Shown here: positions 31,101-48,100 of the stretch, piece after piece | How the letters are laid out: each line of letters starts with the position of its first letter | Numbering within the stretch: the first letter of the stretch is position 1 | From: the human T2T-CHM13v2.0 reference genome, Homo sapiens | Length of the DNA stretch: 64,000 nt | NCBI RefSeq assembly: GCF_009914755.1 | Contig: NC_060928.1 | Strand: one strand, 5' to 3' | Position numbers and translations under genes: made by a program | The notes under the pieces: generated by a model | Database searches by the model: none | What the model was told of the DNA's origin: nothing | What the model saw: the letters and a program-made list of their open reading frames with translations, nothing else

Positions 31101-34100
31101 ACCAATGAGAAGAAAGACACAAAGTACCAGAACATCTGGGACACATTTAAAGCAGTGTGTAGAGGGAAGTTTAGAGCACTAAATGCCCACAAGAGAAAGC
31201 AGCAAAGATCTAAAATTGACACCCTAACATTACAAATAAAATACCTAGAGAAGCAAGAGCAAACAAATTCAAAAGCTAGCAGAAGGCAAAAAATAACTAA
31301 GATCAGAGCAGAACTGAAGGAGATAGAGACACAAAAACCCTTCAAAAAAATCAATGAATCCAGGAGCTGATTTTTTGAAAAGATCAACAAAATTGATAGA
31401 CTGCTAGCAAGACTAATAAAGAAGAGAGAAGAATCAAATAGACGCAATAAAAAATGATAAAAGGGGTATCACCACCGATCCCACAGAAATACAAACTACC
31501 ATCACAGAATACTATAAACACCTCTCTGCAAATAAACTAGAAAATCTGGAATAAATGGATAAATTTCTGGACACATACACCCTCCCAAGACTAAACTAGG
31601 AAGAAGTTGAATCTCTAAATAGATCAATAACAGGCTCTGAAATTGAGGCAATAATTAATAGCCTAGCAACCAAAAGAAGTCCAGGACCAGAGAGATTCAC
31701 AGCCGAATTCTACCAGAGGTACAAACAGGAGCTGGTACTATTCCTTCTGAAACTATTCCAATCAATAGAAAAAAAGGGAATCCTCCCTAACTCATTTTAT
31801 GAGGCCAGCATCATCCTGATACCAAAGCCTGGCAGAGGCACAACAACAAAAAAGAGAATTTTAGACCAATATCCCTGATGAAGATTGATGTGAAAATCCT
31901 CAATAGCATACTGGCAAACCAAATCCAGCAGCACATCAAAAAGCTTATCCACCATGATCAAGTAGGCTTCATCCCTGGGATGCAAGGCTGGTTCAACATA
32001 CGCAAATCAATCAACGTAATCCATCAAATAAACAGAAACAATGACAAAAACCACATGATTATCTCAATAGATGCAGAGAAGGCCTTCGACAAAATTCAAC
32101 AGCCCTTCATGCTAAAAATTCTCAATAAACTAGATATTGATGGAATGTATCTCAAAATAATAAGAGCTATTTATAACAAACCCACAGCCAGTATCATACT
32201 GAATGGGCAAAAACTGGAAGCATTCCCTTTGAAAACTGGCACAAGACAAGGATGCTCTCTCTCACCACTCCTATTCAACACAGCGTTGAAAGGTCTGGCC
32301 AGGGCAATCAGGCAAGAGAAAGAAATAACGGGTAATCAATTAGGAAAAGAGGAAGCCAAATTGTCCCTGTTTGCAGATGACATGATTGTATATTTAGAAA
32401 ACCCCATCGTTTCAGCCCCAAATCTCCTTAAGCTAATAAGTAACTTCAGCAAAGTCTCAGGATACAAAATCAATGTGCAAAGATCACAAGCATTCCTATA
32501 CACCAATAACAGACAAACAGAGCCAAATCATGAGTGAACTCCCATTCACAATTGCTACAAAGAGAATAAAATACCTAGGAATCCAGCCTACAAGGGATAT
32601 GAAGGACCTCTTCAAGGAGAACTACAAACCATTGCTCAATGAAATAAAAGAGGACACAAACAAATGGAGGAACATTCCATGCTCATGGATAGGAAGAATC
32701 AGTATCGTGAGAATGGCCGTAATGCCTAAGGTAATTTATAGATTCACTGCCATCCCCATCAAGCTACCAATGACTTTCTTCACAGAATTGGAAAAAACTA
32801 CTTTAAAGTTCATATGGAACCAAAGAAGAGCCCACATTGCCAGGACAATCCCAAGCAAAAATAACAAAGCATCACACCACCTGACTTCAAACTATACTAC
32901 AAGCCTACAGTAACCAAAACAGCATAGTACTGCTACCAAAACAGAGATATAGACAAATGGAACAGAACAGAGGCCTCAGAAATAATACCACACATCTACA
33001 ACCATCTGATTTTTGACAAACCTGACAAAAACAAGAAATGGAGAAAGGATTCCCTGTTTAATAAATGGTGCTGGGAAAACTGGCTAGCCATATGTAGAAA
33101 GCTGAAACTGGATCCCTTCCTTACGCCTTATACAAAAATTAATTCAATATGGATTAAAGACTTAAATGTTAGACCTAAAACCATAAAAACGTTGGAAGAA
33201 AACATAGGCAACACCATTCAGGACATAGGCATGGGCAAGGACTTCTTGACTAAAACACTGAAAGCAATGGCAACAAAAGCCAAAAGAGACAAATGGGATC
33301 TAATTAAACTAAACAGCTGCTGCATGGCACAAGAAGTGAACAGGCAACCTACAGAATGGGAGAAAATTTTTTCAATCTACCCTTCTGACAAGAGGCTAAT
33401 ATCCACAATCTACAAAGTACGTAAACAAATTTACAAGAAAAAAACAACCCCATCAAAAAGTGGGCAAAGGATATCAACAGACACTTCTCAAAAGAAGACA
33501 TTTATGCAGCCAACAGACACAGGAAAAAATGCTCATCATCACTGGTCATCAGAGAAATGCAAATCAAAACCACAATGAGATACCATCTCATGCCAGTTAG
33601 AATGGCGATCATTAGAAAGTGGGGAAACAACAGATGCTGGAGAGGATGTGGAGAAATAGGAACACTTTTACACTGCTGATGGGAGTGTAAATTAGTTCAA
33701 CCATTGTGGAAGACAGTGTGGTGATTCCTCAAGGATCTAGAGCTAGAAATACTATTTGACCCAGCAATCCCATTACTGGGTATATACCCAAAGGATTATA
33801 AATCATGCTACTATAAAGACACATGTACATGTGTGTTTACTGCAGCACTATTCACAATAGCAAAGACTTGGAACCAATCCAAATGTCCATCAATGATAGA
33901 CTGGATTAAGAAAATGTAGCACATGCACACCATGGAATAGTATGCAGCCATAAAAAAGGATGAGTTCATGTCCTTTGCAGGGACATGGATGAAGCTGGAA
34001 ACCATCATTCTCAGCAAACTATCACAAGGACAGAAAACCAAACACTGCATGTTCTCACTCATAGGTGGGAATTGAACAATGAGAACACCTGGACACAGGG

Positions 34101-34320
34101 CAGGGAACATCACACAATGGGGCCTGTGGTGGGGTGGAGGGCTGGGGGAGGGATAGCATTAGGAGAAATACCAAATGTATTTCTAATGACCAGTTGATGG
34201 GTGCAGCAAACCAACATGGCACATGTATACCTATGTAACAAACCTGCACTTTGTGCACACGTACCCTAGAACTTAAAGTATAAAGAAAAAAAAATTTAGA
34301 TTAAAAAAAAGAAAAAAAAG
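28160..34320 (+). mobile_element. Full-length dead L1 (L1PA6-like)
   Basis: 5' UTR, ORF1 from ATG 29191 (frameshifted), ORF2 from ATG 30278 with early TGA at 30365 and further disruptions. EN and RT (LFADD) motifs appear in the ORF track. 3' UTR with G-rich tract and A tail. Confidence 0.95.
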
Positions 34321-45110: not shown

Positions 45111-48100
45111 TTTTTTTTTTAATGTTCATTGCAGCTTTATTTCTTTTTTTATATATGTACTTCAAGTTCTAGGGTACATGTGCACAACATGCAGGTTTCC
45201 TACATATGTATACATGTGCCATGTTGGTGTGCTGCACTCGTTAACTCGTCATTTACATTAGGTATATCCCCTAATGCTATCCCTCCCCCCTTGCCCCACA
45301 CCACTACAGGCCCCAGTGTGTGATGTTCCCCACCCCGTGTCCAAGTGTTCTCATTGTTCAATTCCCACTATGAGTGAGAACATGCTGTTTCGTTTTCTGT
45401 CCTTGCAATAGTTTGCTCAGAATGATGGTTTCTAGCTTCATCCATGTCCCTGCAAAGGACATGAACTCATCCTTTTTTATGGCTGCATAGTATTCCATGG
45501 TGTATATGTGCCACATTTTCTTAATCCAGTCTATTATTGATGGACTTTTGGGTTGGTTCCAAGTCTTTGCTATTGTGAATAGTGCCGCAATAAACATATA
45601 TGTGCATGTGTCTTTATAACAGCATGATTTATAATCCTTTGGGTGTATGCCCAGTAATGGGATGGCTGGGTCAAATGGTATTTCTAGTTCCAGATCCTTG
45701 AGGAATCACCACACTGTCTTCCACAATGGTTGAACTAGTTTACAGTCCCACCAACAGTGTAAAAGTGTTCCTAGTTCTCCACATCCTCTCCAGCACCTGT
45801 TGTTTCCTGACTTTTTAATGATTGCCATTCTAACTGGTGTGAGATGGTATCTCATTGTGGTTTTGATTTGCATTTCTCTGATGGCCAGTGATGATGAGCA
45901 TTTTTTCATGTGTTTTTTGGCTGCATAAATGTCTTCTTTTGAGAAGTGTCTGTTCATATCCTTTGCCCACTTTTTGATGGGGTTGTTTGATTTTTTTCTT
46001 GTAAATTTGTTTAAGTTCTTTGTAGATTCTGAATATTAGCCCTTTGTCAGATGGGTAGATTGTAAAAATTTTCTCCCATTCTGTAGGTTGCCTGTTCACT
46101 CTGATGGTAGTTTCTTTTGCTGTGCAGAAACTCTTTAGTTTAATTAGATCCCATTTGTCTATTCTGTCTTTGGTTGCCATTGCTTTTGGTGTTTTAGTCA
46201 TGAAGTCCTTGCCCATGCCTATGTCCTGAATGGTATTGCCTAGGTTTTATTCTAGTGTTTTTATGGTTTTAGGTCTATCGTTTAAGTCTTTAATCCATCT
46301 TGTATTAATTTTTGTATAAGGTGTAAGGAAGGGATCCAGTTTCAGCTTTCTCCACATGGCTAGCCAGTTTTCCCAGCACCATTTATTAAATAGGGAATCC
46401 TTTCCCCATTTCTTGTTTTTGTCAGGTTTTTCATAGATCACATGGCTGTAGATGTGTGGTGTTATTTATGAGGGCTCTATTCGGTTCCACTGGTCTATAT
46501 CTCTGTTTTGGTGCCAGTACCATACTGTTTTTGTTACTGTTACCTTATAGTATAGTTTGAAGTCAGGTAGCCTAATGCTTCCAGCTTTGTTTTTTTTGCT
46601 TAGGATTGTCTTGGCAATGCGGGCTCCTTTTTGGTTCCATATGAACTTTAAAGTAGTTTTTTCCAGTTCTGTGAAGAAAGTCATTGGTAGCTTGATAGGG
46701 ATGGCATTGAATCTATAAATTACCTTGGGCAGTATGGCAATTTTCAAAATATTGATTCTTCCTATCCATGAGCATGGAATGTTCTTCTATTTGTTTGTGT
46801 CCTCTTTTATTTTATTGAACAGTGGTTTGTTCTCCTTGAAGAGGTCCTTCACATCCCTTGTAAGTTGGATTCCTAAGTATTTTATTCTCTTTGAAGCAAT
46901 TGTGAATAGGAGTTCACTCATGACTTGGCTCTCTGTTTGTCTGTTATTGGTGTATAGGAAAGCTTGTGATTTTTGCACATTGATTTTGTATCCTCAGACT
47001 TTGTTGAAGTCGCTTATCAGCTTAAAGAGATTTTGGGCTGAGATGATAGGGTTTTCTAAATATACAATCATGTCATCTGCAAACAGGGACAATTTGACTT
47101 CCTCTTTTCCTAACTGAATATCCTTTATTTCTTTCTCTTGCCTGATTGCCCTGGCCAGAACTTCCAACACTATGTTGAATAGGAGTGGTGAGAGAGGGCA
47201 TCCTTGTCTTGTGCCAGTTTTCAAAGGGAATGCTTCCAGTTTTTGCCCATTCAGTATGATACTGGCTGTGGGTTTGTTATAAATAGCTCTTATTATTTTG
47301 AGATACATTCCATCAATATCTAGTTTATTGAGAATTTTTAGCATGAAGGGCTGTTGAATTTTGTCGAAGGCCTTCTCTGCATCTATTGAGATAATCATGT
47401 GGTTTTTGTCTTTGGTTCTGTTTATATGATGGATTACGTTTATTGATTTGTGTATGTTGAACCAGCCTTGCCTCCCAGGGATGAAGCCTACTTGATCATG
47501 GTGGATAAGCTTTTTGAGGTGCTGCCAGATTCAGTTTGCCAGTATTTTATTGAGGGTTTTTGCACTGATGTTCATTAGGGAAATTGGTCTAAAATTCCCT
47601 TTTTTGTTGTGTCTCTGTCAGGCTTTGGTATCAGGATGATGTTGTCCTCATAAAATGAGTTAGGGAGGATTCCCTCTTTTTCTGTTTATTGGAATAGTTT
47701 CAGAAGGAATGGTACCAGCTCCTGTTTGTACCTCTGGTAGAATTCAGCTGTGAATCCGTCTGGTCTTGGACTTTATTTGGTTGGTAGGCTATTAATTATT
47801 GCCTCAATTTCAGAACTTGTTATTGGTCTATTCAAGGATTCAGCGTCTTCCTGGTTTAGTCTTGGGAGGGTGTATATGTCCAGGAATTTATCCATTTCTT
47901 CTAGATTTTATAGTTTATTTGCATAGAGGTGTTTATAGTATTCTGTGATGGTAGTTTGTATTTCTGTGGGATTGGTGGTGATATCACCTTTATCATTTTT
48001 ATTGCGTCTATTTGATTCTTCTCTCTTTTCTTCTTTATTAGTCTTGCTAGCGGTCTCTCAATTTTGTTGATCTTTTCAAAGAATCAGCTCCTGGATTCAT

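What the first reader, a model, noticed from the sequence alone, without database searches (positions are those of the whole stretch)
32043..47410. Perfect 213-bp shared tract between two inverted, ~10%-divergent L1s: ectopic gene conversion
Seen: 32043-32255 (+ L1) is the exact reverse complement of 47198-47410 (- L1), 213/213 by my manual alignment. The immediately flanking homologous sequence differs at about 6/62 and 5/45 positions. At 10% divergence, a given 213-bp window being identical has probability ~2e-10. The tract carries shared departures from the L1 ORF2 consensus ([13 protein letters not shown]...IYNKPTAS vs consensus KTLNKLGIDGTY...IYDKPTAN), so it is not simply conserved consensus. 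The two copies also look like different subfamilies. Inference: recent non-allelic gene conversion between convergent L1s about 15 kb apart at this tract. This marks the pair as recombinationally active and as a substrate for inverting the ~11 kb between them, just downstream of SMAD1.
Basis: partly seen in the sequence, partly recalled or inferred. Interest (0 to 1): 0.8.

Follow-up and report, generated by a model that had tools for sequence, protein, structure and literature searches.

The report
Gene-conversion patch between two inverted L1s
Two old, oppositely oriented L1 retrotransposons 15 kb downstream of SMAD1 share a perfectly identical 213-bp patch that one copied from the other by gene conversion, a clean example of a process already known for dispersed repeats.

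Summary
32043-32255 (+) is the exact reverse complement of 47198-47410, 213/213, with a mismatch at each edge. The two full-length L1s are otherwise 89.9% identical, and the next longest exact run is 84 bp. None of 100,000 permutations gave a run of 213 or more.

The patch is not consensus sequence. It carries five variants that are rare in L1 copies chosen without reference to it (0-2 of 27 and 0-1 of 18). A whole-genome scan found the four-variant combination only in these two copies.

Both elements keep their own lineage type on both sides of the patch. The patch has the type of the + copy. The best reading is therefore a short non-crossover interlocus gene conversion, with the + L1 as donor and the - L1 as acceptor. 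It falls in the last ~18-25% of the elements' residence time.

No inversion signature is visible in this assembly. Five further shared rare variants within about 1 kb 5' of the patch hint at patchy or repeated exchange; this is suggestive only.

The kind of event is known, so interest is modest. Ape orthologues and other human haplotypes could not be examined.

The parts
28160..34320 (+). Full-length L1 'A' (primate L1PA type; subfamily not named here); inferred donor
   Evidence: It aligns end to end with the other L1. The 5' end and A-rich 3' end were read. The ORF2 reverse-transcriptase domain matches Pfam RVT_1 at E 6.9e-40 for 31803-32534. The reading frame has many stops. It falls in panel cluster X at 10 of 12 diagnostic sites, PC1 +3.86.
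45111..51245 (-). Full-length L1 'B', inverted relative to A; inferred acceptor
   Evidence: It has cluster Y states at 7 of 10 diagnostic flank sites but X states at both diagnostic sites inside the patch. PC1 is -1.09. The flanks beyond the element ends are not homologous to A's flanks: identity falls to ~70% at the alignment ends. The two are therefore separate insertions, not an inverted duplication.
32043..32255 (+). Identical patch in A (maximal tract 213 bp). The outermost informative markers, 32078 and 32249, give a minimal tract of 172 bp.
   Evidence: It encodes part of the RT domain ([19 protein letters not shown]...TGTRQGC).
47198..47410 (-). Identical patch in B (the converted stretch; minimal 47204-47375)
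   Evidence: In the whole genome only this place and 32043-32255 match at 100% (40 scored of 4515 candidates, next best 97%); of 23 matches at <=3 mismatches, only these two have 0.
31187..31980 (+). Region 5' of the patch holding five more shared rare variants (31203 C, 31370 A, 31505 C, 31726 C, 31964 A). Each sits in an exact A=B run of 29-48 bp: 31187-31219, 31344-31372, 31478-31525, 31705-31738, 31936-31980. The B counterparts are 48237-48269, 48082-48110, 47925-47972, 47712-47745, 47473-47517. These are candidate minor conversion patches.
   Evidence: Suggestive and post hoc.
34321..45110 (.). 10.8-kb spacer between the inverted L1s. It holds the LOC285422 exons according to the supplied annotation. 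An L1-L1 crossover would invert this segment.
   Evidence: Coordinates and the hub's annotation table. No inversion was tested or seen.

Best explanation
The identical patch is the product of a short, non-crossover interlocus (non-allelic) gene conversion between two independently inserted, inverted full-length L1s on the same chromosome.

Inferred mechanism: a break or lesion in the RT-coding part of the - strand L1 (B, 45111-51245) was repaired by homology-directed synthesis. The template was the + strand L1 (A, 28160-34320), about 15 kb away. This replaced 172-213 bp of B with A's sequence, including A's own private mutations. No flanking exchange followed, so the spacer was not inverted.

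What is shown: the identity, its statistical excess, that its variant combination is unique in the genome, and that parental type is kept on both flanks.

What is inferred: the repair pathway, the direction (about 80% given that conversion occurred), and the timing (within the last ~18-25% of the elements' residence, roughly <7-14 Myr using recalled mutation rates).
For: (1) Excess identity. 213/213 exact, bounded by mismatches. The rest of the pair is 89.9% identical and the next run is 84 bp. 0 of 100,000 permutations reached 213.

(2) It is not shared consensus. In panels chosen by flank similarity only (27 usable of 29, and 18 usable of 20), the patch differs from every other copy at 9-25 of 213 positions. 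Its states are rare there: 32078G in 0/27 and 0/18; 32119T in 1/27 and 1/18; 32134A in 1/27 and 1/18; 32175A in 0/27 and 0/18; 32191G in 2/27 and 0/18. Among 990 pairs of those 45 copies, none is identical over this stretch (minimum 2 differences, median 15).

(3) It is not a sub-lineage. The genome-wide pattern scan of an 85-nt stretch holding four of the variants gave 23 matches at <=3 mismatches. Only the two window copies have 0 mismatches, and the next best has 2.

(4) Shared rare variants are enriched in the patch: 5 in 213 columns against 6 in 2713 outside, odds ratio 10.8, Fisher P 6e-4, using a panel not chosen on the patch. A-private and B-private rare variants number 84 and 71 outside the patch and 0 and 0 inside it.

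(5) Non-reciprocal, no crossover. A is X-type and B mostly Y-type on both sides of the patch. A reciprocal exchange or a double inversion would swap the segments, not make them identical.

(6) Direction. The patch's states at the 5 lineage-polymorphic sites are commoner in cluster X, which is A's type. At 32144, for example, they occur in 23/25 of X against 6/31 of Y. The product of the ratios is 164 if the sites are treated as independent. Lineage score and patch-like state correlate within both panels (rho 0.77 and 0.59; 0.62 pooled).

(7) Tract length fits reported non-allelic conversion tracts in human LTRs: maximal tracts 14-450 bp, mean 99 (PMC4921805, passages read).
Against: Only one assembly was examined. 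No outgroup or second haplotype shows the unconverted state of B.

With the mixed 57-copy panel and a <=7% cut-off, only 2 shared rare sites fall in the patch against 4 outside (Fisher P 0.065). I attribute this to 28 of those copies having been picked for likeness to the patch, which inflates the frequency of its variants. It is nevertheless the less favourable result.

The direction rests on five linked sites, of which only two are strongly diagnostic. B already carries X states at 3 of 10 flank sites. Cluster structure is weak: PC1 explains 17.5% of variance.

One other copy (contig 11, 89.32 Mb) shares 3 of the 4 scanned variants.

Recombination between sequences 10% diverged is expected to be strongly suppressed (established knowledge, recalled). 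The event is therefore a priori rare.
Confidence: 0.85

Rival explanations
1. Same outcome by a different molecular route: a replication-linked template switch (fork stalling, or break-induced synthesis that briefly copies the inverted partner). This would replace meiotic or mitotic double-strand-break repair by synthesis-dependent strand annealing.
For: The inverted orientation in cis 15 kb apart permits intrastrand template switching. Template switching between inverted repeats that homogenises the arms is described in yeast (PMC8604942, abstract seen in the listing). No PRDM9-type 13-mer lies in or near the patch; the nearest one in B is at 45285-45297.
Against: The described switches act over short distances, between short inverted repeats. 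Here the arms are 15 kb apart. Sequence alone cannot separate the two routes.
Confidence: 0.08
2. Gene conversion in the opposite direction: B is the donor and A the acceptor.
For: B carries X-type states at 3 of 10 diagnostic flank sites, so its lineage assignment is not clean. 32146T is a CpG-decay state equally common in both clusters (12/25 against 12/31).
Against: The patch states at 32087, 32130, 32144 and 32249 are 2.4- to 4.5-fold commoner in A's cluster. In the panel picked by B's own flank they are in the minority (4, 4, 1 and 1 of 18).
Confidence: 0.15
3. Assembly or polishing artefact: sequence of one copy was written onto the other in T2T-CHM13.
For: Only one assembly was available.
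Against: The patch is 213 bp long and sits inside 6-kb elements that differ at ~10% on both sides. Long reads spanning it would be placed unambiguously. Collapses give long identical stretches, not a sharp short patch (inference).
Confidence: 0.03
4. No transfer: chance identity, or both copies descend from a source lineage that had this sequence.
For: Some unrelated copies differ by as few as 2 of 213 in this conserved RT segment. Each single rare variant recurs sporadically in other copies.
Against: Neither copy has a private change in the patch, where about 12-17 A-B differences are expected. The five-variant combination is unique in the genome. A and B differ at lineage-diagnostic sites on both sides of the patch.
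Confidence: 0.02

Closest known systems
Interlocus gene conversion between neighbouring Alu elements (Aleshin & Zhi 2010, as summarised in PMC6598467 and PMC8230782; passages read)
   Same: Non-reciprocal transfer of a short stretch between dispersed retroelement copies in cis. It is detected through non-diagnostic (private) mutations shared by neighbours. The rate falls with distance and is reported to act mainly within about 10 kb.
   Different: Here the elements are 6-kb L1s rather than 300-bp Alus, the converted sites are ~15 kb apart, and identity is ~90%. PMC8230782 states that most work on gene conversion between transposable elements has been on Alu.
Non-allelic gene conversion among human LTR elements (PMC4921805; passages read)
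   Same: The donor is identified as the only 100% match to the derived cluster. The maximal tract is defined by the nearest unconverted paralogous variants. Tracts are 14-450 bp, and intrachromosomal donors are favoured.
   Different: Those events were seen as polymorphic SNP clusters on Y chromosomes with a known phylogeny. Here there is a single haplotype and no polarity from a tree.
[quoted passage not shown]
   Same: An experimental precedent that diverged L1 copies can serve as templates for short-tract repair of a broken L1.
   Different: Experimental, somatic, mouse. The donors were dispersed copies, not a nearby inverted partner.
Arm-to-arm gene conversion in palindromes and inverted segmental duplications (Rozen et al. 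2003 and Hallast et al. 2013; titles seen in the reference list of PMC4921805; content recalled)
   Same: Intrachromosomal conversion between inverted repeats. Inversion of the spacer is the crossover alternative.
   Different: Palindrome arms are kept >99.9% identical by frequent conversion. This pair is 89.9% identical, with one clear patch, so there is no concerted evolution.
Balanced inversions flanked by inverted L1 pairs (Porubsky et al. preprint 10.1101/2021.12.20.472354; passages read)
   Same: The same architecture: inverted L1s a few kb apart. The median L1-flanked inversion is 5.6 kb.
   Different: 21 of 22 such pairs were >90% identical (median 97.2%). This pair is at 89.9%, and no inversion is seen or documented here. 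The preprint text has no mention of chr4, 4q31 or SMAD1. Its supplements are closed and the published version is not held.

Membership tests
Interlocus (non-allelic) gene conversion tract | A stretch of identity between paralogues far longer than flanking divergence predicts, with sharp edges | tested here: met
   213 exact against the next run of 84. 0 of 100,000 permutations reached 213 or more. Mismatches lie at 32042 and 32256.
Interlocus (non-allelic) gene conversion tract | The stretch carries derived or private variants of one copy, not family consensus, and no other genomic copy has the combination | tested here: met
   Five rare variants. Enrichment odds ratio 10.8, P 6e-4. Genome scan: only the two copies at 0 mismatches among 23 matches. 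Only these two at 100% among the 40 scored of 4515 candidates. The less favourable mixed-panel test gave P 0.065.
Interlocus (non-allelic) gene conversion tract | Non-reciprocal: the flanks on both sides keep each copy's own type (no crossover) | tested here: met
   A is X-type at 10 of 12 sites. B is Y-type at 7 of 10 flank sites, on both sides of the patch. The number of diagnostic sites is modest.
Interlocus (non-allelic) gene conversion tract | The acceptor's orthologue in an outgroup, or another haplotype, shows the unconverted state | not testable with these tools
   No ape genomes or other human assemblies were available.
LINE-1 (L1) retrotransposon, full length | About 6 kb with an ORF2 reverse-transcriptase domain, an A-rich 3' end, and thousands of genomic relatives | tested here: met
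   RVT_1 at E 6.9e-40. A-rich tails. 4515-8369 first-look candidates genome-wide. Alignable length about 6.1-6.2 kb.
LINE-1 (L1) retrotransposon, full length | Target-site duplications flanking each insertion, showing independent insertion and no later rearrangement | tested here: inconclusive
   A has an A-rich 11-12 nt match on both sides that cannot be told from the tail. B has a possible 10-nt duplication matching at 8 of 10, read by eye.
Only the fact that the two copies belong to different lineages was tested.
L1-mediated NAHR inversion | Chimeric L1s whose lineage type switches at a breakpoint, and an inverted spacer relative to other haplotypes or outgroups | tested here: not met
   No type switch across the patch in either element. 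Spacer orientation in other genomes was not testable. No transposon-mediated rearrangement with coordinates beginning 14557-14559 appears in the supplements of PMC9675761 (5 files searched as text, a sixth unreadable).

The most novel reading that the evidence does not exclude
The pair has exchanged sequence more than once, or through one ~1-kb heteroduplex repaired in patches (31187-32255). On this reading, homeologous recombination across 10% divergence recurs at this locus, and the 213-bp patch is only its most visible trace.

Five further rare variants are shared within 1.05 kb 5' of the patch, three of them G>C transversions. Each lies in a longer-than-typical identity run. In other genomic copies these variants occur singly, never together. 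If this reading is true, the locus would be a natural reporter for how far mismatch-rich heteroduplex is tolerated in the human germ line. It would also be a candidate for rare inversion alleles of the LOC285422-bearing spacer.
Probability: 0.3. Interest if true: 0.45.

Novelty: new member of a known kind. Interest (0 to 1): 0.3.

Why it matters
This is a clean, fully sequence-resolved case of gene conversion between old L1 copies only ~90% identical, with donor, acceptor, tract limits and relative date inferred from a single genome. Such events have three practical consequences. They blur age estimates that rest on divergence from consensus. They can mislead short-read mapping and variant calling inside repeats. 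They show that diverged repeats in cis can still pair. The finding does not change what is known about the mechanism, and it has no evident effect on SMAD1 or the nearby lncRNA.

Tried and rejected
(1) A second tract at 30148-30369 (96% identity). A and B differ at 8 positions there. 20 panel copies differ pairwise by 6-25 (median 16). Only one shared rare variant is present (30367), and the 84-bp exact run 30252-30335 holds no shared non-majority state. Not supported.

(2) PRDM9-type 13-mer (recalled motif). There are 8 matches in the window, none in or next to the patch. The nearest in B is 45285-45297 and there is none inside A. Uninformative.

(3) The copy on contig 11 at 89.32 Mb shares 3 of the 4 scanned variants. 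I asked whether it is a sibling of A. It is not among the copies sharing A's rare flank variants, and the top sharers there are copies whose flank is not L1 and is misaligned. No conclusion drawn.

(4) Target-site duplications as a test for past inversion: too A-rich or too degenerate to use.

(5) Mixed 57-copy panel for shared rare variants: 2 in the patch against 4 outside, P 0.065. Replaced by a panel not picked on the patch. Both results are reported.

(6) The panel picked by A's right flank turned out mostly Y-type (23 of 28). It is therefore a poor proxy for A's lineage, and clusters were defined from the panel itself instead.

(7) Looking for a documented inversion or rearrangement at the locus. 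There is nothing in the PMC9675761 supplements. The Porubsky preprint text does not mention the locus, its supplements are closed, and the published paper is not held. This is not evidence of absence.

(9) Literature searches found reviews and studies of Alu, LTR and segmental-duplication conversion. They found no paper describing this particular L1 pair. These seven searches are the whole basis for saying I found none.

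
Full report
OBSERVATION. Reading both stretches and comparing them in a script shows that 32043-32255 on the + strand equals the reverse complement of 47198-47410 at all 213 positions. 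The exact run stops at mismatches at 32042 and 32256.

The patch sits inside two inverted, full-length L1 elements that align over their whole length (30 inverted-repeat pairs). In the global alignment there are 6169 aligned pairs, 622 mismatches and 166 gap columns, giving 89.9% identity. The next longest exact runs are 84, 56 and 52 bp. A sliding 200-column window sits at about 0.90-0.92 through ORF2 and rises to 0.975-0.99 only over the patch. Over the element body (4590 columns, 435 non-identical), none of 100,000 permutations of the non-identical columns gave a run of 213 or more. The largest was 174, and the analytic bound is 4.6e-7.

WHAT THE ELEMENTS ARE. The stop-free stretch 31803-32534 matches Pfam RVT_1 (E 6.9e-40), so the patch lies in the reverse-transcriptase part of L1 ORF2. 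The frame is broken by many stops. Both elements have A-rich 3' ends. Identity drops to about 70% at the ends of the alignment. They are therefore separate insertions, not an inverted duplication of a segment. Target-site duplications were too A-rich or too degenerate to use.

IS THE PATCH JUST CONSERVED L1 SEQUENCE? The whole genome that holds the window could be searched. With the 213-bp patch as query, 40 of 4515 first-look candidates were scored. Only the two window copies are 100% identical, and the best other is 97%, which is 7 differences.

Copies picked by likeness to the patch are biased towards sharing its variants. I therefore built two further panels chosen only by the 600 bp to the right of the patch. 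One used A's version (29 copies, 27 usable). The other used B's version (20 pieces fetched of the 39 non-self hits, 18 usable). These copies differ from the patch at 9-24 and 10-25 of 213 positions.

The patch departs from the panel majority at ten positions. Five of these states are rare:
- 32078G: 0/27 and 0/18
- 32119T: 1/27 and 1/18
- 32134A: 1/27 and 1/18
- 32175A: 0/27 and 0/18
- 32191G: 2/27 and 0/18

The other five positions (32087, 32130, 32144, 32146, 32249) are polymorphic among L1 lineages or are CpG sites. Among 990 pairs of the 45 flank-picked copies, the number of differences over this stretch has a minimum of 2 and a median of 15, and no pair is identical.

A pattern scan of the whole genome used an 85-nt stretch holding four of the rare variants and allowed up to 3 mismatches. 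It gave 23 matches. Only the two window copies have none, one copy on contig 11 has two (it shares three of the four variants), and the rest have three. The combination therefore does not mark an L1 sub-lineage.

With the panel that was not chosen on the patch, shared rare variants number 5 in 213 columns inside the patch and 6 in 2713 outside (odds ratio 10.8, P 6e-4; P 0.0018 if the 600 bp used for picking are left out). A less favourable count must also be told. With all 57 copies pooled and a 7% cut-off, it is 2 inside against 4 outside (P 0.065). The pool includes the 28 patch-picked copies, which inflates the frequency of three of the variants. Rare variants private to A or to B number 84 and 71 outside the patch and none inside.

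DIRECTION AND TYPE OF EXCHANGE. A and B differ at 45 flank sites where both states are common among other copies, so they come from different L1 lineages. I clustered the panel on flank sites only, without using A or B. This gave groups X (25) and Y (31) with 12 diagnostic sites.
- A is X-type at 10 of 12 sites, on both sides of the patch.
- B is Y-type at 7 of 10 flank sites, again on both sides.
- B is X-type at both diagnostic sites inside the patch.

On the first principal axis A scores +3.86 and B -1.09. The patch's states at the five polymorphic sites are commoner in X than in Y: 19/25 v 8/31, 24/25 v 12/31, 23/25 v 6/31, 12/25 v 12/31 and 12/25 v 3/31. The product of the ratios is 164 if the sites are treated as independent, which overstates it because they are linked. 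The association holds inside each panel (rho 0.77 and 0.59).

The patch therefore has A's background. A is the likely donor and B the acceptor. Because neither element changes type across the patch, the event was not accompanied by a crossover. A reciprocal exchange, or an inversion followed by re-inversion at a nearby point, would have swapped the segments and not made them identical. The converted stretch is 172 bp at least (32078-32249) and 213 bp at most.

TIMING. Outside the patch the private-variant densities predict 12-17 A-B differences in 213 bp if the copies had never exchanged, and none is seen. This puts the event in the last 18-25% of the elements' residence time (95% bound). With recalled human germ-line rates of 0.5-1.0e-9 per bp per year, the same zero count bounds the age at about 14 to 7 Myr. 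The donor carries 5 rare variants in the patch where 6.6-8.5 are expected today. This fits a late event. Whether it is human-specific, or even polymorphic, cannot be told here.

MECHANISM. The most likely route is homology-directed repair of a lesion in B by synthesis-dependent strand annealing on A, without crossover. This is an inference from the non-reciprocal, short, sharply bounded tract. The tract length is within the range reported for non-allelic conversion among human LTRs (maximal tracts 14-450 bp, mean 99; PMC4921805, passages read). Conversion among dispersed repeats is reported to favour nearby partners in cis (PMC6598467 and PMC8230782, passages read). A replication-linked template switch between the inverted arms would leave the same footprint and cannot be excluded. 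No PRDM9-type motif lies in or beside the patch.

BEYOND THE FINDING. Five of the six shared rare variants outside the patch lie within 1.05 kb on its 5' side: 31203 C, 31370 A, 31505 C, 31726 C and 31964 A. Three of them are G>C transversions. All six sites lie in exact A=B runs of 27-48 bp, where a random identical column lies in a run of 22 on average (sum test P 0.006; run coordinates).

Other genomic copies do carry C at 31505 (6 of the 10 best hits fetched) or at 31726 (4 of 10). None of those ten copies carries a second of the three C states. They are therefore not a linked lineage haplotype.

My rough expectation for chance sharing is about 1.2 sites in all and 0.14 transversions. Lineage-type differences between A and B persist between these sites, so one long old tract is unlikely. 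Several short patches, or one heteroduplex repaired in patches, would fit. This was noticed after looking at the data and is only suggestive.

INVERSION CLAIM. Nothing in this assembly shows an L1-L1 crossover. In the Porubsky et al. preprint, 22 balanced inversions were flanked by inverted L1 pairs, and 21 of these pairs were >90% identical with a median of 97.2% (passages read). This pair lies at the low edge of that range. The preprint text does not mention the locus. Its supplements are closed and the published paper is not held. The supplements of PMC9675761 hold no event with coordinates beginning 14557-14559, which is my estimate of the GRCh38 position. The pair is a possible inversion substrate but not a demonstrated one.

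VERDICT. It is refined here to a non-crossover transfer of 172-213 bp from the + L1 to the - L1, late in the elements' history. Gene conversion between dispersed retroelements is established, so this is a new and unusually clean member of a known kind. Interest is modest. It would rise somewhat if the hints of repeated or patchy exchange, or an inversion allele, were confirmed in other genomes.

Noticed in passing
window 31187-31980 (B: 47473-48269): Five more rare variants shared by the two L1s (31203 C, 31370 A, 31505 C, 31726 C, 31964 A), each in a 29-48 bp exact run. Three are G>C transversions that occur singly, never together, in the 10 other copies examined. They may be further short conversion patches or one patchy tract.
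   Followed up: partly
window 30148-30369 and 49084-49305: A 222-nt stretch at 96% identity holds the 84-bp second-longest exact run. It has 8 differences against a panel range of 6-25, and only one shared rare variant. It looks like ordinary conserved L1 sequence, not a second tract.
   Followed up: yes
G000 contig 11, 89317936-89318020 (locus L006): This is the only other genomic L1 copy within 2 mismatches of the 85-nt probe. It shares three of the four rare variants scanned. Its right flank is not L1. It shows no clear excess of A's other rare variants. Coincidence or distant kinship was left open.
   Followed up: partly
window 11481, 15857, 17075, 19844, 27598, 41108, 45285, 56714: There are eight matches to the recalled 13-mer hotspot motif against 0.77 expected from shuffles. 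Two are the same 13-mer (17075, 27598), probably from Alu-type repeats (recalled, not tested). None is near the patch.
   Followed up: no
window 27338-27637 and 38945-39194: Another pair of inverted repeats (149 nt at 78% and 118 nt at 86%) lies just 5' of L1 A and inside the spacer. It is presumably a short interspersed repeat pair. Not examined.
   Followed up: no
G000 contig 10, 68571502-68571562 and 68611503-68611563 (L117/L118, L129/L130): Two L1 copies 40 kb apart in the same orientation both carry the rare C at the site homologous to 31726. This may be a local duplication or another exchanging pair. Not examined.
   Followed up: no
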